A stretch of 63,283 nt of DNA, filler included, from Actinomycetota bacterium (GTDB lineage: Bacteria > Actinomycetota > CADDZG01 > JAHWKV01 > JAOPZY01), in assembly GCA_025963875.1 (NCBI GenBank). It is 8 parts of 8 records of this genome, joined end to end, with 100 filler letters (N's around TTAATTAATTAA, not from the genome) between each part and the next. Parts side by side here need not be neighbours in the genome. Positions count along the whole stretch, not along the records: positions 55,760 to 63,283 come from JAOPZY010000108.1; 7 more parts are not named here. One strand, 5' to 3'. Made by a program: the position numbers. Of this stretch, positions 56,301 to 62,300 are shown in pieces; the first letter of the stretch is position 1; every line of letters begins with the position of its first letter.

Positions 56301-59300
56301 TCATACAAAATCAGCGTAGCTCGCACCTTTGGGATGCCCCACCTTTCCCGTCACGTCGACGACGCCGCGCCGAGCGGCACGCGGGAAGGCCTCGCTCCTG
56401 CTTGTACCGAGGGAGTTCTGTGTAGATGTCCGAACCGTTGCCAAGGGAGCGGCCGGCGAGCACGAGCGTTGCCACGATCGTCGTGCCAGCCGGAACGAAC
56501 GGGTGAAGATGTCGGTGGTCGAAGACGTAGCGTGTGCCTGCGGCCAACTCACCATCGAACAGGCCAGTCGGGTGTAGCGAACCTCAGCCTCTCGGAACCG
56601 CCATCCGAGCCGAAGGTGGAAGGGTATTGAGTGATGCACCGCGAGGCCGGGACCGTTATTCCGCGGGTGAACCTGTCACTGGTGCACGGAATCAGTGCGG
56701 CGCCGTCGGCCATACTTCACCCCCAAAGCCTCACCCCAAGATCTCCAGATCGACCCCGAGCGCCCTGTACGTTTCGATCGCTCGCCGATCCCGGGTCGCA
56801 AGCCGGAGCCGGTGCTCGAGCGCCGCTGCGCCAACGAGCGCGTCGTAGACCGCACCCCCGGCGATACCAGCCCCCGCAAGACGGGCGAGGAGCTGCTGGG
56901 CCGCCGCAGCGCCAAGGAAGCGGGACCATGGAAAGTTCCTGGCCAGCAGAGTCTGGGTCGCCTTCGGCGTGCGCCTGAGGGGTGGGGGCAGCCGGGTGAC
57001 CACGGAGAAGGTTTCGAATGCAGCATGCCCGGCGAGTCCGACGCGGCGATCGGCGATCGCATCTGCGGTCGCCCGGTGATGCTCGTGATCCGCTACGACA
57101 AGGGCGACCGCGACACTCGTATCGACCAGGAGGTCAGGCTTGTCACCTCTGACTGGCATCCCGGAGGGCCCGGACGAGGTCGTCGTCGATCTGGCTCCCG
57201 GCGGCAGGGATGACCAGGCGTCCGTCCTCCTCGTCGAGCTCGTCGCCGGCCAGCGGCTCGACCCTGAGTCCCGCCCCGTCCGCGATCACCTCGACTTCAC
57301 CTGGCACCAGGCCGACCTGGTCGCGTAATGGTTTCGGAATCACCAATCTGCCTGCCTTATCGATGGTAGTTTTCATGCCCATAGGTTACCAGGCAAAAGG
57401 GGAGGGCCGTCTGCCGACGACTGCTCCCGTGCCGTCAGCCTCCGGAGCAACAGATGGCAGAGTCCATCGAGACGGGTCAACGAGCACGGCGGCTTGGCCC
57501 TGGGGCCGACGCTCCGTGGCCAAGGCAGGCCGCTGCCTCATCGTCCGGCTCGCATCCCCTCGCCGACCGTCAGTCAGCGGCGCGGGCTGTGGGCATCGAT
57601 ACGCCTCATGCCAGCTGAGGCAGGGAGACGGGCGGCGGTCGACCTGGGAGATCTTTAGGAACGGTGACCCGCTACCAGGGCCGCGCATCGGGGGTCCCGA
57701 TCAGTCGGTCGATGTCGGCTCTTGCCGCCTGGATCGAGGAAGCATCGGGGCTCCAGAGCCTGGACTGGCCCGGCGTGCTCGGCCGCAGGCCCGCTCGGGC
57801 CCGCGCTCGCTCGACGATTGCGGCCGCCATCACATCCGGCGCGTGGCTCTCGGTGCCAGTTGCCGCTCTGATCTGGCACCATTGGGCGAGGCAGCGCAGG
57901 ACGAAGCTCAGGCCCATGCTGGCAACGGTCTCCTCCCAGACCTGCGTCTCGACGGGGTCGAGCGGCGTCCGGGGCGGCGGAGGGTTGAGCAGCTCGCGTG
58001 CCACGATGGTCGGGAGGGAGGATGCCGCAACGAGTGCCCCGTCGGCACAGAGGTGCGGCAGGGCCTCCCCAACGAGGGGGTCGCCCTGCACGACCTGCCA
58101 CCGGAGCGTGTAGAAGAAGCTGCCGGCGCTGGTTGCCAGAAGCCCCGAGGTCGTGTGGGGCGACGTTGGATGCGGTTGCGTCTCCCGGACAATCATGTCG
58201 AGGGGGTGAGCATCGGGCGGCACCCCGATGGCCCGGAACGGGCCCTGCGTGCCGTAGAGGCGAGCGAGGACCGACATCGGCGAATGAGGGGCGGTTGCCT
58301 TGCCCCGCCAGCGGCAGCCGAGGGCGGCTGCGTCCCAGAATGCCGTGGCCACCTTGGCCCCCAACTTGAACAGCCGTTCGTCGCCGGTGCCGTGGCTCAC
58401 GGACCCGTTGGTTGCCTTCGCCGGCCTCGTTGCTCGCCGCGGTTTGCCGGCGGGGGGTTGACCGCCCGACCGGGCTGGGGAGCGTGCCGGCGCGACGGGC
58501 CGCTGAGGTTCCTGGGACCGGGCCGCCACCTTCGATGCCCGATCCTCCGACGACCCCTGGGGGTGCTCTTGACGAGGCGCGGTGGGAGCCGGCTCGACCG
58601 CGGGCCGCGGAATGCAGGTCCTGCAACCGAGACGGTCGCGCCCGGCTACGAGCGGCGAGCTGTCGCCGCAGTGCGGGCACCGCAGCGGGAGGAAGCCCAC
58701 TCCGCCGGGAACCCACGTGAGCGTGAGGGGAAACGCCCGGTCTCCCCTCCGCACGCTGACGGGCACGCTCAGGGCAGGCACCGCAACGAGATGGAGCCGG
58801 AAGGGTTGGATCTCGTGGCGCGGTTCGAACCGTTCCTCGATCTCGGCAAGCCGGCGATCCCGCTCCGTGATCGTCACCTCCGCCTGGGAGGCGAGGAGCC
58901 CGCGCCGCTCCTGCGGTGCCGTCGCTGCCCTTGCCGCGATGGATTCGAGGGCAGTTGCGTAGTAGGTCGCCGCCCGGCGCAACTCCTCTTCCCGGGCAGC
59001 CCGGGCCTGGCCGGACAGCTCTGCGCGCCTCGCCAACGCCCGCCCCTCGATGAGCGTGTGGGCCGCGGCCAGGGCAGCAGGCAGATCACAATCCAGCATC
59101 GGCCGTGCGGGATCGATGCCCGCCTCGAGTGACCGGCTCGCCACGTGGGCTCGCACGGGGGCCTCCAGGGGAAGGCAGGCCCGTGCATCGATCCACACCT
59201 CTTCGCGCTCCTGGAAGCGGTCCTCGAGCGAGGCGGAATAGCTCACCATGGCACCGACCCGCAGGACCGGCAGGTGCGCTTCCACGGGAGGCGTGCCCGT

Positions 59301-62300
59301 AGCGTCCAGCTTGCCGTGGTCCACCCCCAGCGCTGCCCGCGCTCGCAGCACCAGCTCCGTGGCTGATGGTGGCATCGATGCCGGCCAGGCCATGCGCGAG
59401 AACCCCACGTCGGCGCGGTTCAGCGCTGCCGACGCGGCCCGGTCGACGATCGGGTGCCCGTGGATGAGCAGGACCGCCCCCTCCTCCCGGGCCGCTTCGG
59501 GGTCGGCCGTGACGGTCAGCTCCTCGGGAAGGTCGAGGTCGGCCTGCACTGCGTCCGGCAGCAGGAGCAGGGTCGTATCGTCGCGCCGCTCCCAGGCGCC
59601 ACCCCGAGCCTGGGCATAGTCGAGCACGAACCGGAGCGCCTCGTCCGGTGCCGCCGGCGGCGGGCGACCCGCCTGCCTCACCGCGGCCCGACCTGCTGCT
59701 CGCCCACGAGGCGGTCTGTTCCCTCCCGGCTGGCGAGATAGCCCCGGCGGGCCTGGGCGAGCCCATCTCCGAGAACCTCCAGCCGGTCCGCGAACTCGGC
59801 ATCGTCGGCCGAGGCCAGGTGGGCCTTGAAGATGACCGACTCGAATTCGAAGTCCTCCTCCACGCGCCCCAGGATCATGTCGAGCTCGCCCACCACGAGC
59901 TCGAACAGGTTGATCTTGGCCTCGAGGAGCTCGAGGATCCGTTCCTCGACCGTTCCCCGGGCCACGAGGTTGATGAGCAGGACATCGCTCGTCTGGCCGA
60001 TACGGTGGATCCGCCCCAGGCGTTGCTCGATCTGCATCGGGTTCCACGGAAGATCGAAGTTGACCATGACGTGGCAGAACTGCAGGTTGCGCCCCTCCCC
60101 GGCCGCCTCGGTCGTGAGCAGGATGGGGGCGTCCTCCCGGAAATCGGCGATGGCCTGCTCTTTTGCGTGGCGGCTGAGTCCACCGTGGTAGATGACCGCC
60201 CGCAGCCCGGCGTCGGAGGCCAGGCGCGCGAGGTAGTCGAGGGTCTGGCGAAAGGCGGTGAAGACCACCACCTTCTCCGACTGGGCTTCGTGGCGGCGCA
60301 GGGTCTCCATCAATGCGAGGGCCTTGGCGGTCGGCCCGAGCCGCGTCGCCCGTTCTGCGAGATCGCTCCAGCCCACCTTGGTGAGAATCGGCTCCATGAC
60401 GGCAGGGCTCGACCCGGCCATGCGCTGGAGCGCCAGGAGCGCCATGGCCCGCGACGGGGACGCCTCCCGCCCCTCCCGGCGCACCCGCTCCGATACCGCC
60501 TGGTAGAGGGCCGTCTCGTCGGCCCCCGCCTTGACCGGGATGGTCCGTGCGAGGCGCCGGGGGAGCATGAGGGCCACTTCGCTGCGCCGGTGCCGGACCA
60601 TCACATCGCGCATGGCGGAGCGTAGGGCGGCGAGGTTGCGAGGCTCCCCCCCGTTGGAGCCGTGCCGGGAGCGGAACTCGCGCTGGTTGCCGAGCAACCC
60701 CGGCGAGACGAGGCTCGCGAGCTGGAACAGATCCTCCAACCGGTTTTCCACCGGGGTGGCCGTGAGCAGCAGGAGGTGCCTTGCGCTGATGGCGCGGACG
60801 GCCCGGCCGGTCGCGCTGCGAGGGTTCTTCACCCGGTGAGCCTCGTCGACGATGAGCAGATCCCACTTCGCCGCCGTGAGCTCCTCCCTGAGCGGGGGCC
60901 GCCGTGCGGAGGCGAGGGAGGCGATGAGCACCGGTGGGTCGTCTCCCCGCGCATGGTCGGGGATGCCAGTGGCCGTGAGGACTTCGGAAGGAAGGCCGAA
61001 TTTGCGCTCCAACTCCTCACGCCATTGCTGGACGAGGCCCGGTGGGACGAGGATCAGGATCCGCCTCGCGACGCGACGCAGGCGCAGCTCCGCCAGGATG
61101 AGACAGGCCTCGATGGTCTTGCCGAGTCCGACCTCGTCGGCCAGGATGGCCCGGCCCCGCATCCGGCGGAGCACCGCGGCAGCGGCGTTGAGCTGGAAGT
61201 CGAAGGGCTCGAAGCGCAATTCGGGCAGCGAGACAAAGGTTTCGAAGCCCGGCCGGGACCACAGCCCCAGCGCCCGGTCGACGAGCCGGGATTCTGCCTC
61301 CTCGATGGGCGGCGCCGTCTCGAGTCGGCTGAGCAGTGGAAGGTACGAGTCAGGCAGCGATGCCAGACCGTCCCCGCGGGTGGGGCCTGTGGCTGGGAAC
61401 GGTAGAACTACACTCATGGAATTATCATTCTGTATTCTCGACGGACGTTCCGCAACATCGCGAAAAACGGGTGGGCCGGTCCGACAGCTCCTGGCGTGTG
61501 GCGTTTCGGCGCTACGGCGCTATGTTGGCGTCATGGCGACCATCCACATCCGCAACGTTCCCGAGGCTGTCCGCCGCGTCTATCAGACGCGGGCTGCGGC
61601 GGCCGGGATGAGCCTGCAGGAATACCTCCTGGCCGAGCTCGTGCACAACGCCGGCCTTCGTTCGTCTGCCGAGCTGATCGACGAAGTCGAGGCTCGGATG
61701 CGAGTCGAAGGTCGCGAGGGATTCGCCGCCGCGTCCTCGGCCGACGTTGTACGTGCTGACCGCGACGCACGCTGAAGGATCCTGCGGTGGCGGTCGTGGA
61801 CGCGAGCGTCTTTGTTGACGCCCTGGTCGGTGCGGGCCGGCCGGGTGAGCTGGCCAGGGCCGAGCTGCGGGGCCGGAGCGTGCTGGAGGTGCCAGCCTTC
61901 TTCGCGGCCGAAGCCACCTCCGCGCTGCGAGGTCTTGTCCGGGGCGGCTCTCTCAGCACACTTCGCGCGGCGACAGCGCTCGAGCAGATCCGTACGGTGA
62001 GGACGATCCAGTACCCGTTCGAGCCGTTTGCTTATCGGGTGTGGGAACTGCGGGACGACGTGACGGTCTACGACGCCTGGTATGTCGCGCTCGCCGAGTG
62101 GCTCGGGGTCGAGTTCGTCACCGCGGATGAGCGACTGGCCGGAGCATCCGGCCTGCACTGCGCGGTCCGCCAGGCCGGTGGCGGCCAGGGCTATCCCGGG
62201 CCGTTCTCGTAACCTGCCGGCGGCCGTCCCGGCGACTCCTTTCTCGAAGACTCCCCCGGCTGTCGCAAAATGGCGACCCGAGGTAGCGCTTGTCCGGAAC

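What a model noticed while it worked through the whole genome (the two positions that open the first line are those of the whole stretch)
57672..61417. A RapA-type Swi2/Snf2 ATPase split into two genes: ATPase core plus a 669-aa partner carrying the RapA C-terminal domain [...]
g00580 (579 aa, Snf2 ATPase core, best Swiss-Prot hits B. subtilis YqhH/HepA and RapA residues 157-650) overlaps by its stop codon the start of g00579 (669 aa, no Pfam family), whose residues 1-304 superpose on the C-terminal part of E. coli RapA (residues 697-968), followed by a CxxC-x14-CxxC ribbon, a disordered linker, an NTF2-like domain and a helical tail; the same gene pair, in the same order, is found in 79 of 80 related loci from Mycobacterium, Streptomyces, Frankia, Pseudonocardia, Solirubrobacterales and Acidimicrobiales. 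I read the two proteins as one split RNA-polymerase-associated remodeller: the partner supplies the module that RapA has in cis and adds new sensor domains. It wo [...]
Evidence so far: Pfam at E<=0.01: 0 families for g00579; 48 homologues in the 5.8-billion set, none with Pfam. AF2 on the 27-row alignment A3: pLDDT 82.4. Foldseek PDB: only RapA entries below E 1e-3 (6bog, 8spg, 8so8, 8t0l; E 3e-6 to 1e-5); VIA-align: model 2-302 on RapA 697-966, Z 8.5, 234 aligned, rmsd 9.5, 18% identity; model 431-559 on NTF2/CaMKII-hub folds, Z 8-8.7. Invariant C335, C338, C353, C356. Swiss-Prot: g00580 36.7% to YqhH over 520 aa, 29-31% to RapA 157-650. Synteny: tblastn of g00580 finds the helicase ending up to about 100 nt before (or overlapping) the partner in 79 of 80 loci from find_related_loci (124 relatives found, 80 kept); the one miss has only 84 nt of upstream DNA. 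predict_compl [...]
(Added by a program. Inside this text positions count along the whole contig: they may not be those of the stretch shown here. "Call 12" and the like, gene names such as g00115 and contig names such as C1 are that model's own, and its searches are not shown. The text may have been shortened before it was handed on; [...] marks where a part breaks off. The agent that wrote the report below was given it as the finding of a first reader that could run no searches.)

Follow-up and report, generated by a model that had tools for sequence, protein, structure and literature searches.

The report
Split RapA-like ATPase: YqhH/YqhG-type pair
Two overlapping genes encode a Snf2 motor and a partner that together rebuild the architecture of the E. 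coli RNA-polymerase recycling factor RapA, and the partner is a distant relative of the uncharacterised Bacillus protein YqhG, which gives that protein family a testable role.

Summary
g00580 (59678-61417, minus strand, 579 aa) is an intact Snf2 ATPase. Its stop overlaps, in GTGA, the start of g00579 (57672-59681, 669 aa).

New here:
- The partner's first ~330 residues are a remote member of Pfam YqhG (PF11079). Profile-profile probability is 98%, E 6e-14.
- In Bacillota, YqhG genes sit directly behind a g00580-like helicase (YqhH/HepA) in 28 of 30 loci.
- An independent model of a Bacillus-type YqhG, like the partner model, matches only RapA in the PDB (RapA ~707-962).
- The helicase is colinear with RapA 158-666. 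The pair is therefore RapA cut in two near residue 700, without RapA's N-terminal Tudor domains.
- A complex prediction passes (0.76 against 0.00), but this may reflect likeness to solved RapA.

Limits:
- RNAP binding is not shown, and 0 of 11 published RapA-RNAP contact residues are conserved.
- The pair is patchy: 8 of 201 genomes of the phylum.
- It has no conserved neighbours and only a weak association with defence genes.
- The NTF2-like tail is optional: 44 long and 22 short partners.

Verdict: a new variant of a known kind. The architecture is well supported; the cellular target is open.

The parts
59678..61417 (-). g00580, 579-aa Snf2 ATPase (YqhH/HepA-like). ATPase motifs are intact. 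Colinear with E. coli RapA 158-666.
   Evidence: ORF and translation. Pfam SNF2-rel_dom and Helicase_C. BLASTP to RapA: 31% identity, E 5e-43. In the 58-row family alignment the GLGKT and DEAH motifs are invariant.
61223..61417 (-). Helicase residues 1-65, N-terminal segment before the ATPase core. Predicted docking site for the partner. RapA's two Tudor domains are absent.
   Evidence: The predicted interface uses helicase residues 5-58, 112-116 and 160. 10 of 33 interface residues in 1-74 are conserved, against 4 of 41 others (p 0.026). No Tudor_RapA Pfam hit; RapA itself gives both Tudor hits.
59678..59681 (-). GTGA: the partner's GTG start overlaps the helicase's TGA stop, which suggests translational coupling.
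   Evidence: Sequence read directly. In the related loci the helicase and partner tblastn matches lie between 36 nt of overlap and 171 nt apart.
58692..59681 (-). Partner residues 1-330: YqhG-like module with the fold of RapA ~700-965.
   Evidence: hhalign of A1 against Bacillota YqhG: 98.2%, E 5.8e-14, 311 columns. A local repeat gave 97.8%. In Foldseek only RapA falls below 1e-3. pLDDT is mostly above 85.
58608..58691 (-). Partner residues 331-358: CxxC-x14-CxxC zinc ribbon.
   Evidence: C335, C338, C353 and C356 are invariant in 41 sequences. The motif is found in 67 of 68 complete partner ORFs. It is absent from the Bacillus-type YqhG sequences aligned.
58392..58607 (-). Partner residues 359-430: Pro/Ala-rich linker, predicted disordered.
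   Evidence: pLDDT below 50 for residues 369-430.
58005..58391 (-). Partner residues 431-559: NTF2-like domain.
   Evidence: VIA-align over 48,161 chains: 2f86_B Z 10.8, rmsd 3.0, 104 aligned; many NTF2 folds at Z 9-10.
57672..58004 (-). Partner residues 560-669: helical tail, plus the stop codon. Together with the NTF2-like domain it forms a C-terminal module found only in this family.
   Evidence: Helices at 558-661 in the model. A profile of residues 428-669 finds 293 cluster representatives among 1.84 billion proteins. In the 150 listed, the match reaches or comes close to the protein's C-terminal end in nearly all rows. Those proteins are 122-802 aa long.

Best explanation
The two genes encode one heterodimeric RapA-like Swi2/Snf2 machine.

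**What each part does**
- g00580 is the DNA-translocating ATPase core.
- g00579 docks through its conserved YqhG-like module onto the helicase's N-terminal ~60 residues. It supplies in trans the module that RapA carries in cis after residue ~700. That module includes part of RapA's Spacer.
- The four-base start/stop overlap suggests coupled translation of the two subunits.

**Most likely role (inferred)**
- By analogy with RapA and with Bacillus YqhH/HepA, the complex most likely uses ATP-driven movement on duplex DNA to remodel or evict a DNA-bound protein complex.
- The best candidate target is RNA polymerase that is stalled or left on DNA after termination or damage.
- RapA's Tudor NTD, its clamp-pulling handle, is missing. 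Another part must therefore hold the target: the invariant zinc ribbon and, in long forms such as this one, the tethered NTF2-like/helical tail.

**Shown and inferred**
- Shown: gene pairing, homology to YqhG, fold match to RapA, colinear split point.
- Supported by a model only: that the two proteins bind.
- Inferred: the RNAP target and the role of the tail.

**My odds**
- Two-subunit RapA-like architecture: 0.85.
- RNAP or transcription complexes as the target: about 0.4.
For: - **Split point.** The helicase aligns with RapA 158-666 (31% identity, E 5e-43). The partner model matches only RapA in the PDB by Foldseek (5.6e-6 to 2.2e-5; next non-RapA hit 0.14).
- **Independent test with YqhG.** A Bacillus-type YqhG was modelled from 29 Bacillota sequences only (pLDDT 89.1).
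  - In Foldseek it again matches only RapA below 1e-3 (8t0l_F 2.0e-6; next non-RapA 0.09).
  - In VIA-align, which does not use Foldseek, RapA ranks first of 48,161 chains: 4s20_K, Z 7.0, rmsd 6.8, 220 aligned, model 4-261 on RapA 707-962.
- **Homology to YqhG.** Probability 98.2%, E 5.8e-14.
- **Pairing.** The helicase is adjacent in 78/80 loci. In Bacillota a g00580-like helicase precedes YqhG in 28/30 loci.
- **Complex prediction.** Score 0.76 against a best control of 0.00. That mark was reached by 116 of 157 solved complexes and 2 of 215 mismatched pairs. The three runs share at least 74% of contacts, and the partner's pLDDT is at least 80.
- **Conservation at the interface.** Conserved residues of the helicase N-terminal segment are enriched at the predicted interface (10/33 against 4/41, p 0.026).
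- **Published RapA work.**
  - Deleting the RapA NTD has no noticeable effect on the RapA-RNAP interaction, and the beta' ZBD contacts Spacer residue D744 (PMC8501970, passages).
  - The Spacer wedges into the opened RNAP cleft (preprint 10.1101/2024.09.28.614012, passages).
- **Published YqhH work.**
  - B. subtilis YqhH is treated as HepA/RapA (PMC7385302, passages).
  - A B. thuringiensis yqhH knockout survives UV less well (PMC10054049, abstract).
- **No cis form nearby.** Canonical RapA_C is nearly missing from this phylum: 2 of 201 genomes, 1 over the cut-off.
Against: - **No test of RNAP binding was possible.**
- **RapA's RNAP contacts are not kept.** None of the 11 published contact residues in domains 1A and 2A is conserved in the pairwise alignment. 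They are L216, V217, L220, R226, L229, R502, R524, E527, I540, I541 and R545. Several hydrophobic ones become charged: L216R, V217E, L220E, I540R.
- **The NTD is absent.** The RapA NTD:beta' ZBD contact, reported as essential for disrupting post-termination complexes, has no counterpart here.
- **The link to RapA_C is by fold only.**
  - The Pfam RapA_C model does not hit.
  - hhalign to RapA C-termini gives only 0.5-8.9% probability, although always in the same register.
  - The superpositions have high rmsd (7-11 A), and VIA Z 7.0 is in the range the tool calls middling.
- **The complex pass may be memory of solved RapA.**
- **Interface conservation on the partner side is not significant** (15/48 against 66/317, p 0.08).
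- **The pair is an accessory trait, unlike a core transcription factor.**
  - Found in 6 of 61 relatives including the window's own genome. A same-genus genome that is 98% complete lacks it, and another has a copy only 54% identical.
  - Found in 8 of 201 genomes of the phylum, a floor.
  - Both tallies count the unpublished genome G007 as one positive.
Confidence: 0.45

Rival explanations
1. The pair is a mobile two-gene defence or anti-plasmid module. The Snf2 motor scans DNA, and the partner's zinc ribbon and NTF2-like tail sense foreign DNA or a phage protein. This would resemble other Snf2 helicases in DISARM, BREX, Zorya, Hma and Dpd.
For: - The distribution is patchy, with divergent copies inside one genus.
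- No neighbour is conserved: the largest neighbour cluster occurs in 5 of 81 loci.
- The window copy lies between two PIN-domain genes, one next to a MazE-like antitoxin.
- Neighbours elsewhere include toxin-antitoxin genes, transposases and Uma2 nucleases.
- Type II Wadjet genes (JetA, JetC, JetD) lie next to the pair in 4 loci: L009, L016, L022 and L046.
- The best helicase profile hits are to defence helicases: DrmD 262 bits, BrxHI 253 bits.
- The C-terminal module is variable and optional.
Against: - The partner hits no PADLOC model.
- The helicase hits are partial and far below the NCBIfam cut-offs.
- No nuclease, methylase or other effector is conserved beside the pair.
- About 10 of the 244 nearest-neighbour ORFs give a defence-specific PADLOC hit. 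Kinase, methyltransferase, homing-endonuclease and glycosidase (GlgB-like) hits were set aside as generic. The second set has none of Wadjet.
- Three of the four Wadjet-adjacent loci fall in one helicase clade, so they count as about two events.
- Many neighbours are housekeeping genes such as CysS, ArgS, chorismate synthase and ligases.
- The Bacillus counterpart has so far been linked to RNAP and UV tolerance, not to phage.
Confidence: 0.2
2. The pair is a RapA-like remodeller that does not touch RNAP. It acts on another DNA transaction, for example clearing proteins or R-loops at damaged or stalled forks, or helping recombination or repair after UV.
For: - RapA's RNAP contact residues and its NTD are not conserved.
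- A B. thuringiensis yqhH knockout is UV-sensitive (abstract of PMC10054049).
- In B. subtilis, loss of hepA lowered survival with MMS when PcrA was depleted (passages of PMC7385302).
- LigD or ATP-dependent ligase genes neighbour the pair in L017, L021 and L026.
Against: - The only solved relative of the whole architecture is an RNAP-bound factor.
- The UV and MMS phenotypes fit equally well with clearing RNAP from damaged DNA. A 2026 preprint links RapA to replication/transcription conflicts after damage (PMC12871841, seen in a search listing only).
- The repair genes beside the pair are not conserved neighbours.
Confidence: 0.2
3. The fold match to RapA is a chance likeness of an alpha/beta module with a long helical hairpin. 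The two genes are merely co-transcribed neighbours and form no complex.
For: - rmsd is high (7-11 A) and TM-scores are low.
- VIA Z is 7.0, which the tool calls middling.
- Profile comparisons with RapA_C are not significant.
Against: - Two independently built models from families about 20% identical both pick RapA, and only RapA, with a gap of four orders of magnitude to the next hit.
- The match covers the whole module and starts where the helicase's alignment to RapA ends.
- Pairing is near-universal across two phyla.
- The complex prediction scores 0.76 against controls at 0.00.
Confidence: 0.05

Closest known systems
E. coli RapA (HepA), RNA-polymerase-associated Swi2/Snf2 ATPase (PDB 6bog, 4s20, 8t0l)
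   Same: - The Snf2 core is colinear with RapA 158-666 at 31% identity.
- The partner's N-terminal module has the fold of RapA ~700-965.
- The predicted assembly rebuilds a RapA-like body.
   Different: - Two polypeptides instead of one.
- No Tudor NTD.
- The Pfam RapA_C and NCBIfam RapA models are not met.
- RapA's RNAP contact residues are not conserved.
- It has an extra zinc ribbon and, in long forms, an NTF2-like domain plus a helical tail.
- It is an accessory, patchy trait.
Bacillus subtilis YqhH (HepA) and its neighbour YqhG (Pfam PF11079, function unknown)
   Same: - Same gene order and strand: helicase, then YqhG-like gene, in 28/30 Bacillota loci.
- The helicases are 32-40% identical to g00580.
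- The partner's N-terminal module is homologous to YqhG (98% probability).
- Both models match RapA's C-terminal part.
   Different: - The Pfam YqhG model itself does not hit g00579.
- Bacillus-type YqhG proteins are 262-275 aa and lack the zinc ribbon and the C-terminal module.
- My searches found no paper that treats YqhG as part of a split RapA.
Snf2 helicases of defence systems: DISARM DrmD, BREX BrxHI, Hma HmaA
   Same: The helicase core gives its highest profile scores to these: DrmD 262 bits, BrxHI 253 bits.
   Different: - The hits cover only the two core lobes of much longer profiles and are far below the cut-offs.
- None of the companion genes of those systems is conserved beside the pair.
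- The partner matches no PADLOC model.
Fused RapA-like proteins of the same phylum (for example the 1034-aa ORF in L112)
   Same: - Architecture SNF2 + Helicase_C + RapA_C, with RapA_C at 32.5 bits, over the cut-off.
- The core is 35% identical to g00580.
   Different: - A single polypeptide.
- Rare: 2 of 201 genomes.
- Its C-terminal part aligns with the YqhG-like profiles only weakly, at 0.7-8.9% probability.

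Membership tests
RapA / HepA (NCBIfam NF003426; Pfam architecture Tudor_1_RapA + Tudor_RapA + SNF2 + Helicase_C + RapA_C) | Snf2 ATPase core with intact motifs, colinear with RapA | tested here: met
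   Pfam hits. BLASTP 75-546 on RapA 158-666, E 5e-43. Walker A and DEAH motifs are invariant in 58 sequences.
RapA / HepA (NCBIfam NF003426; Pfam architecture Tudor_1_RapA + Tudor_RapA + SNF2 + Helicase_C + RapA_C) | Whole-protein score over the curated cut-off of the RapA equivalog model | tested here: not met
   198 bits against a cut-off of 576.
RapA / HepA (NCBIfam NF003426; Pfam architecture Tudor_1_RapA + Tudor_RapA + SNF2 + Helicase_C + RapA_C) | Two N-terminal Tudor-like domains (NTD) | tested here: not met
   Neither protein gives a Tudor_RapA hit, while E. coli RapA gives both. Only about 65-74 residues precede the core.
RapA / HepA (NCBIfam NF003426; Pfam architecture Tudor_1_RapA + Tudor_RapA + SNF2 + Helicase_C + RapA_C) | RapA_C domain (PF12137, RapA 605-965) in the same polypeptide | tested here: not met
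   Neither protein gives a PF12137 hit. The equivalent fold is on a second protein. The sequence-profile link to RapA_C is not significant.
RapA / HepA (NCBIfam NF003426; Pfam architecture Tudor_1_RapA + Tudor_RapA + SNF2 + Helicase_C + RapA_C) | Binds RNA polymerase core, and its ATPase is activated by RNAP | not testable with these tools
   The one indirect test is negative: 0 of 11 published contact residues in domains 1A and 2A are conserved.
YqhG (Pfam PF11079) | Match to the Pfam model over its cut-off (25 bits) | tested here: not met
   g00579 gives no PF11079 hit at E<=1. The own genome gives none either.
YqhG (Pfam PF11079) | Homology to family members by profile-profile comparison | tested here: met
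   hhalign of A1 against 12 YqhG ORFs: 98.2%, E 5.8e-14, 311 columns. Against 29 ORFs: 97.8%, E 7e-13. tblastn gives a weak direct hit to L087. An ESM Atlas YqhG cluster scores 0.86, a lead only.
YqhG (Pfam PF11079) | Encoded directly downstream of a YqhH-type Snf2 helicase | tested here: met
   28/30 Bacillota YqhG loci, 78/80 loci of the partner family, and the window itself.
DISARM DrmD / BREX BrxHI / Hma HmaA defence helicases | Full-length match over the cut-off, plus the system's companion genes nearby | tested here: not met
   DrmD scores 262 and 254 bits against cut-offs of 610 and 950. The PADLOC hits cover only the core lobes. No conserved companion genes were found.
NTF2-like fold (partner residues 431-559) | Cone-shaped alpha+beta fold that superposes on NTF2/CaMKII-hub structures | tested here: met
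   Z 10.8, rmsd 3.0, 104 aligned for 2f86_B, and dozens of NTF2 folds at Z 9-10. A shared fold shows no function.

The most novel reading that the evidence does not exclude
**The reading.** YqhH/YqhG-type pairs are a widespread class of two-subunit RapA-like remodellers, in which the exchangeable partner decides the target.

- In actinobacterial long forms, the zinc ribbon and the tethered NTF2-like/helical tail would replace RapA's Tudor handle.
- They would direct the motor either to RNAP through a new interface, or to a non-RNAP target such as invading DNA or a plasmid or phage nucleoprotein complex.
- That would make this an unrecognised accessory genome-guarding system built from a transcription-recycling scaffold.
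Probability: 0.2. Interest if true: 0.75.

Novelty: new variant of a known kind. Interest (0 to 1): 0.55.

Why it matters
- **It gives a Pfam family of unknown function a structural role.** YqhG, and its unannotated actinobacterial relatives, would be the detached C-terminal module of a RapA-like motor.
- **It explains a puzzle about Gram-positive 'HepA/YqhH' proteins.** They are about 400 residues shorter than RapA because the missing part is the next gene.
- **It bears on published work with YqhH.** If true, work that treats YqhH alone may be studying half an enzyme.
  - This applies to knockouts and in-vitro ATPase or helicase assays, as in the papers seen.
- **It sets up clean experiments.**
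  - Does the pair bind RNAP without the Tudor handle that E. coli RapA is reported to need?
  - What do the invariant zinc ribbon and the optional NTF2-like tail recognise?
- **It is not a new kind of machine.** Its cellular role remains unproven.

Tried and rejected
**Searches that gave nothing significant**
- Sequence searches of the PDB with the partner alone, with profile A1 and with profile A2 found no RapA. The only low-E-value matches were coiled-coil hits to SPX domains at 0.004-0.02.
- hhalign of the YqhG-like profiles against RapA C-termini gave 0.5-8.9% probability.
  - The targets were 98 enterobacterial sequences (low diversity) and two fused actinobacterial RapA-like proteins.
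  - This is not significant. All six comparisons do place the module's first ~80 residues in the same register just after the ATPase core.
- The search for fused helicase+partner proteins longer than 1171 aa found none at E<=0.001. The tool calls this weak evidence. None of the 48 near-length hits is fused: their lengths are 537-734 aa.
- The ESM Atlas gave no usable hit for residues 425-669.

**Ideas tested and dropped**
- A conserved third gene: none. The largest neighbour cluster is in 5 of 81 loci. The 100-aa ORF at 57386-57688, which overlaps the partner's end, has no Pfam hit and joins no cluster.
- The C-terminal module in other protein architectures: none seen among the 150 best of 293 hits. 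Many short hits (122-290 aa) may be gene fragments or stand-alone forms. I could not inspect their contigs.
- TFIIB-like zinc-ribbon hits in Foldseek (E about 0.3) are too weak to use.
- Defence association: weak.

**Calls that failed or were closed**
- An all-against-all BLAST of every ORF timed out and was replaced by a smaller one.

**Literature**
- I found no paper that links YqhG to RapA. One search was swamped by unrelated words.

**Not seen**
- The domain table of the RapA preprint is an image or supplement and was not seen. Naming RapA 700-965 as 'part of Spacer + Linker 3 + CTD' therefore rests on D744 being called Spacer and on my recall.

Full report
**1. What is in the sequence**

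The window is a chain of short contigs separated by N spacers. The finding lies in the last one, window 55760-63283, about 7.5 kb. On the minus strand, ORF 59678-61417 encodes 579 aa (P0001, g00580). ORF 57672-59681 encodes 669 aa from a GTG start (P0002, g00579). The helicase stop and the partner start share GTGA.

P0001 carries SNF2-rel_dom and Helicase_C. Its PADLOC hits (BrxHI, DrmD, HmaA) cover only the two core lobes of much longer profiles. Every NCBIfam hit is far below its cut-off: DrmD 262 bits against 610, RapA 198 against 576. P0002 has no hit in Pfam at E<=0.1, in PADLOC or in NCBIfam.

The pair is flanked by a MazE-like gene plus a PIN gene downstream (57143-57382 and 56731-57159, minus strand). 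A PIN gene lies upstream on the other strand (61787-62212).

**2.

Most were reproduced.
- 48 homologues, none with a Pfam domain.
- Invariant C335, C338, C353 and C356 in my 41-row alignment A1.
- AF2 pLDDT 83.4, with a disordered stretch at 369-430.
- Foldseek against the PDB finds only RapA below 1e-3 (5.6e-6 to 2.2e-5). The next non-RapA hit is at 0.14.
- An NTF2/CaMKII-hub fold at 431-559: 2f86_B, Z 10.8, rmsd 3.0, 104 aligned.
- Of 138 relatives found in the species-representative genomes, 80 loci were kept. A P0001-like helicase ends within a few dozen bases of the partner's start in 78 of the 80. The two misses have no upstream DNA.

I could not reproduce the VIA-align Z for RapA on the whole model, because NTF2 folds fill the lists.

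**3. The partner is a remote YqhG**

I fetched Pfam YqhG (PF11079) genes from Bacillota genomes. The family is present in 39 of 401 genomes sampled from the phylum of G061, whose record is titled Bacillota.

In 28 of the 30 loci cut out, a helicase 32-40% identical to P0001 lies directly upstream on the same strand. One exception is at a contig edge. The other, L101, has no helicase hit anywhere in the 3.4-kb locus, which holds about 1.1 kb upstream of the gene.

A profile-profile comparison of A1 with 12 of these YqhG ORFs gives 98.2% probability, E 5.8e-14, over 311 columns (A1 9-356). A local repeat against 29 ORFs gives 97.8%, E 7e-13. tblastn even gives a weak direct hit to L087, 24% over 313 residues. 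The ESM Atlas lists a YqhG cluster among the nearest (0.86, a lead only). It also lists unnamed 340-382-aa clusters from other phyla.

So g00580/g00579 is the actinobacterial form of the Bacillus yqhH-yqhG pair. YqhH is called HepA, a poorly characterised RapA homologue, in the passages I read of PMC7385302.

**4. YqhG-like modules have the fold of RapA's C-terminal part**

As an independent test I modelled a Bacillus-type YqhG (L081, 271 aa) from the 29 Bacillota sequences alone (pLDDT 89.1).
- Foldseek again returns only RapA below 1e-3: 8t0l_F 2.0e-6, 8so8 3.6e-6, 6bog_A 1.1e-5, 8spg 1.3e-5. The next non-RapA hit is at 0.09.
- VIA-align, which does not depend on Foldseek, ranks RapA first of 48,161 chains. 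The match is 4s20_K, Z 7.0, rmsd 6.8, 220 aligned, model 4-261 on RapA 707-962. It is the only row that spans the whole model.
- The Z is middling and the rmsd high. But two models from families about 20% identical pick the same unique target over their full length.

P0001 aligns colinearly with RapA 158-666, so the cut falls near RapA residue 700. Pfam places RapA_C at 605-965.

At the sequence level the link to RapA_C is not significant (0.5-8.9% probability). All six comparisons do place the module's start in the same register after the ATPase core.

**5. Do the two proteins bind?**

The complex prediction used the helicase alignment A4 and partner residues 1-365 of A1.
- It scored 0.76, against a best control of 0.00.
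- That mark was reached by 116 of 157 solved complexes and 2 of 215 mismatched pairs.
- The runs share at least 74% of contacts, and the partner's pLDDT is at least 80.
- Because RapA is solved, the pass may reflect likeness and not evidence for this copy.

The interface uses helicase residues 5-58, the segment before the ATPase core. Conserved residues are enriched there: 10 of 33 against 4 of 41, p 0.026. On the partner side the enrichment is not significant: 15 of 48 against 66 of 317, p 0.08.

**6. What differs from RapA**
- Neither protein has RapA's Tudor domains.
- In passages of a preprint (10.1101/2024.09.28.614012), RapA pulls the beta' zinc-binding domain with its NTD to open the clamp. 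RNAP without that domain is not dislodged, and the Spacer wedges into the open cleft.
- In PMC8501970 (passages), deleting the NTD has no noticeable effect on the RapA-RNAP interaction. The flap-tip helix binds L216, V217, L220, L229, I540, I541 and R226. The alpha/beta subunits bind R502, R524, E527 and R545. The beta' ZBD touches Spacer D744.
- In the pairwise alignment none of these 11 core residues is kept in P0001, and several hydrophobic ones are charged.

If the pair acts on RNAP, it therefore does so through a different interface.

**7. The extra domains**

All but one of 68 complete partner ORFs carry the CxxC...CxxC ribbon. The Bacillus-type YqhG sequences do not. One Bacillota homologue (L092, 680 aa) instead has a long tail full of CxxC pairs.

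The NTF2-like domain and helical tail are optional.
- 44 partners are long (594-732 aa). 22 are short and end just after the ribbon. Two are intermediate.
- One of the 22, L055, is cut at its 5' end by the contig edge.
- Short forms sit in at least six places in a midpoint-rooted FastTree of the helicases, nested among long forms. This suggests repeated loss.
- That tree used 58 of the 64 clean helicase ORFs. Two loci were dropped for internal stops.

A profile of the tail finds only 293 cluster representatives in 1.84 billion proteins. Among the 150 listed, the match reaches or comes close to the protein's C-terminal end in nearly all rows, and no other architecture appears.

**8. Distribution and context**

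The partner occurs in 6 of 61 related genomes, the window's own included. One same-genus genome that is 98% complete lacks it, and another carries a copy only 54% identical. It occurs in 8 of 201 genomes sampled across the phylum, which is a floor. Both tallies include the unpublished genome G007 as one positive. Canonical RapA_C occurs in 2 of 201 genomes, 1 over the cut-off.

No neighbouring gene is conserved: the largest cluster is in 5 of 81 loci. The two nearest ORFs on each side (244 ORFs) are a mix of three kinds.
- Toxin-antitoxin genes, transposases and Uma2 nucleases.
- Wadjet genes in four loci.
- Ordinary housekeeping genes.

PADLOC gives about 10 defence-specific hits among the 244. 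I set aside kinase, methyltransferase, homing-endonuclease and glycosidase (GlgB-like) hits as generic. Three of the four Wadjet-adjacent loci belong to one helicase clade.

The pair is therefore an accessory, probably horizontally moving module, but it is not clearly a resident of defence islands.

**9. Reading**

The architecture claim is well supported, about 0.85: a RapA-like Snf2 machine in two subunits, equal to the YqhH/YqhG pair.

The function is inferred. Most likely it is an ATP-driven remodeller of DNA-bound transcription complexes that helps under stress, about 0.4-0.45. The UV sensitivity of a B. thuringiensis yqhH knockout fits this (abstract of PMC10054049). Rivals are a defence or anti-plasmid role (0.2), a repair role without RNAP (0.2), and chance likeness (0.05).

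**10. Novelty**

yqhH and yqhG are named genes, and YqhH is already called a RapA homologue. I found no paper stating either of these points.
- That YqhG is the detached RapA C-terminal module.
- That actinobacteria carry a divergent form extended by a ribbon and a tail.

The searches were 'yqhH' with 'yqhG' (2 papers, neither on this), 'PF11079' with 'PF12137' (0 papers), and 'yqhG' + 'Bacillus subtilis' + 'RNA polymerase' (1 paper, on extracellular DNA). I rate it a new variant of a known kind.

Noticed in passing
window 10475-55759: The window is not one stretch of genome. Seven pairs of 44-N spacers split it into eight short contigs. Only 55760-63283 is contiguous with the finding, so window-level context beyond 7.5 kb means nothing for this locus.
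   Followed up: yes
window 56731-57382 (-) and 61787-62212 (+): PIN-domain genes lie on both sides of the pair. The downstream one overlaps a MazE/AbrB-type antitoxin gene. The upstream one is divergent from the helicase. Its presumed antitoxin ORF (61496-61759) was not scanned.
   Followed up: partly
L092:232-2274 (-): A Bacillota YqhG homologue of 680 aa. Its C-terminal ~400 residues are a long run of CxxC pairs, so many zinc ribbons are likely. It lies behind a helicase 39% identical to g00580. This is a different partner tail from the actinobacterial one.
   Followed up: partly
L112:2371-5475 (-) and neighbours: A fused 1034-aa RapA-like protein (SNF2 + Helicase_C + RapA_C) in a genome of the same phylum. 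An Hsp70-like 398-aa ORF overlaps its end, and a DUF4357 ORF lies upstream. This may be another accessory Snf2 module.
   Followed up: no
L009, L016, L022, L046: Type II Wadjet genes (JetA, JetC, JetD) lie directly beside the helicase-partner pair. In L022 and L016 they are upstream on the same strand. Three of the four loci are close relatives by the helicase tree.
   Followed up: partly
L101:1099-2070 (+): A YqhG-family ORF (PF11079, 72 bits) with no g00580-like helicase hit anywhere in the 3.4-kb locus held. It is the only internal exception among the 30 Bacillota loci.
   Followed up: no
proteins P0173-P0311: Many hits to the partner's C-terminal module are proteins of 122-290 aa that consist of that module alone. 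They may be fragments at contig ends, or the tail may also exist as a separate gene.
   Followed up: no
L013, L027, L036: The helicase reading frame stays open 70-115 codons past the partner's start, giving ORFs of 649-688 aa. This is probably stop-poor high-GC sequence and not a fusion.
   Followed up: no
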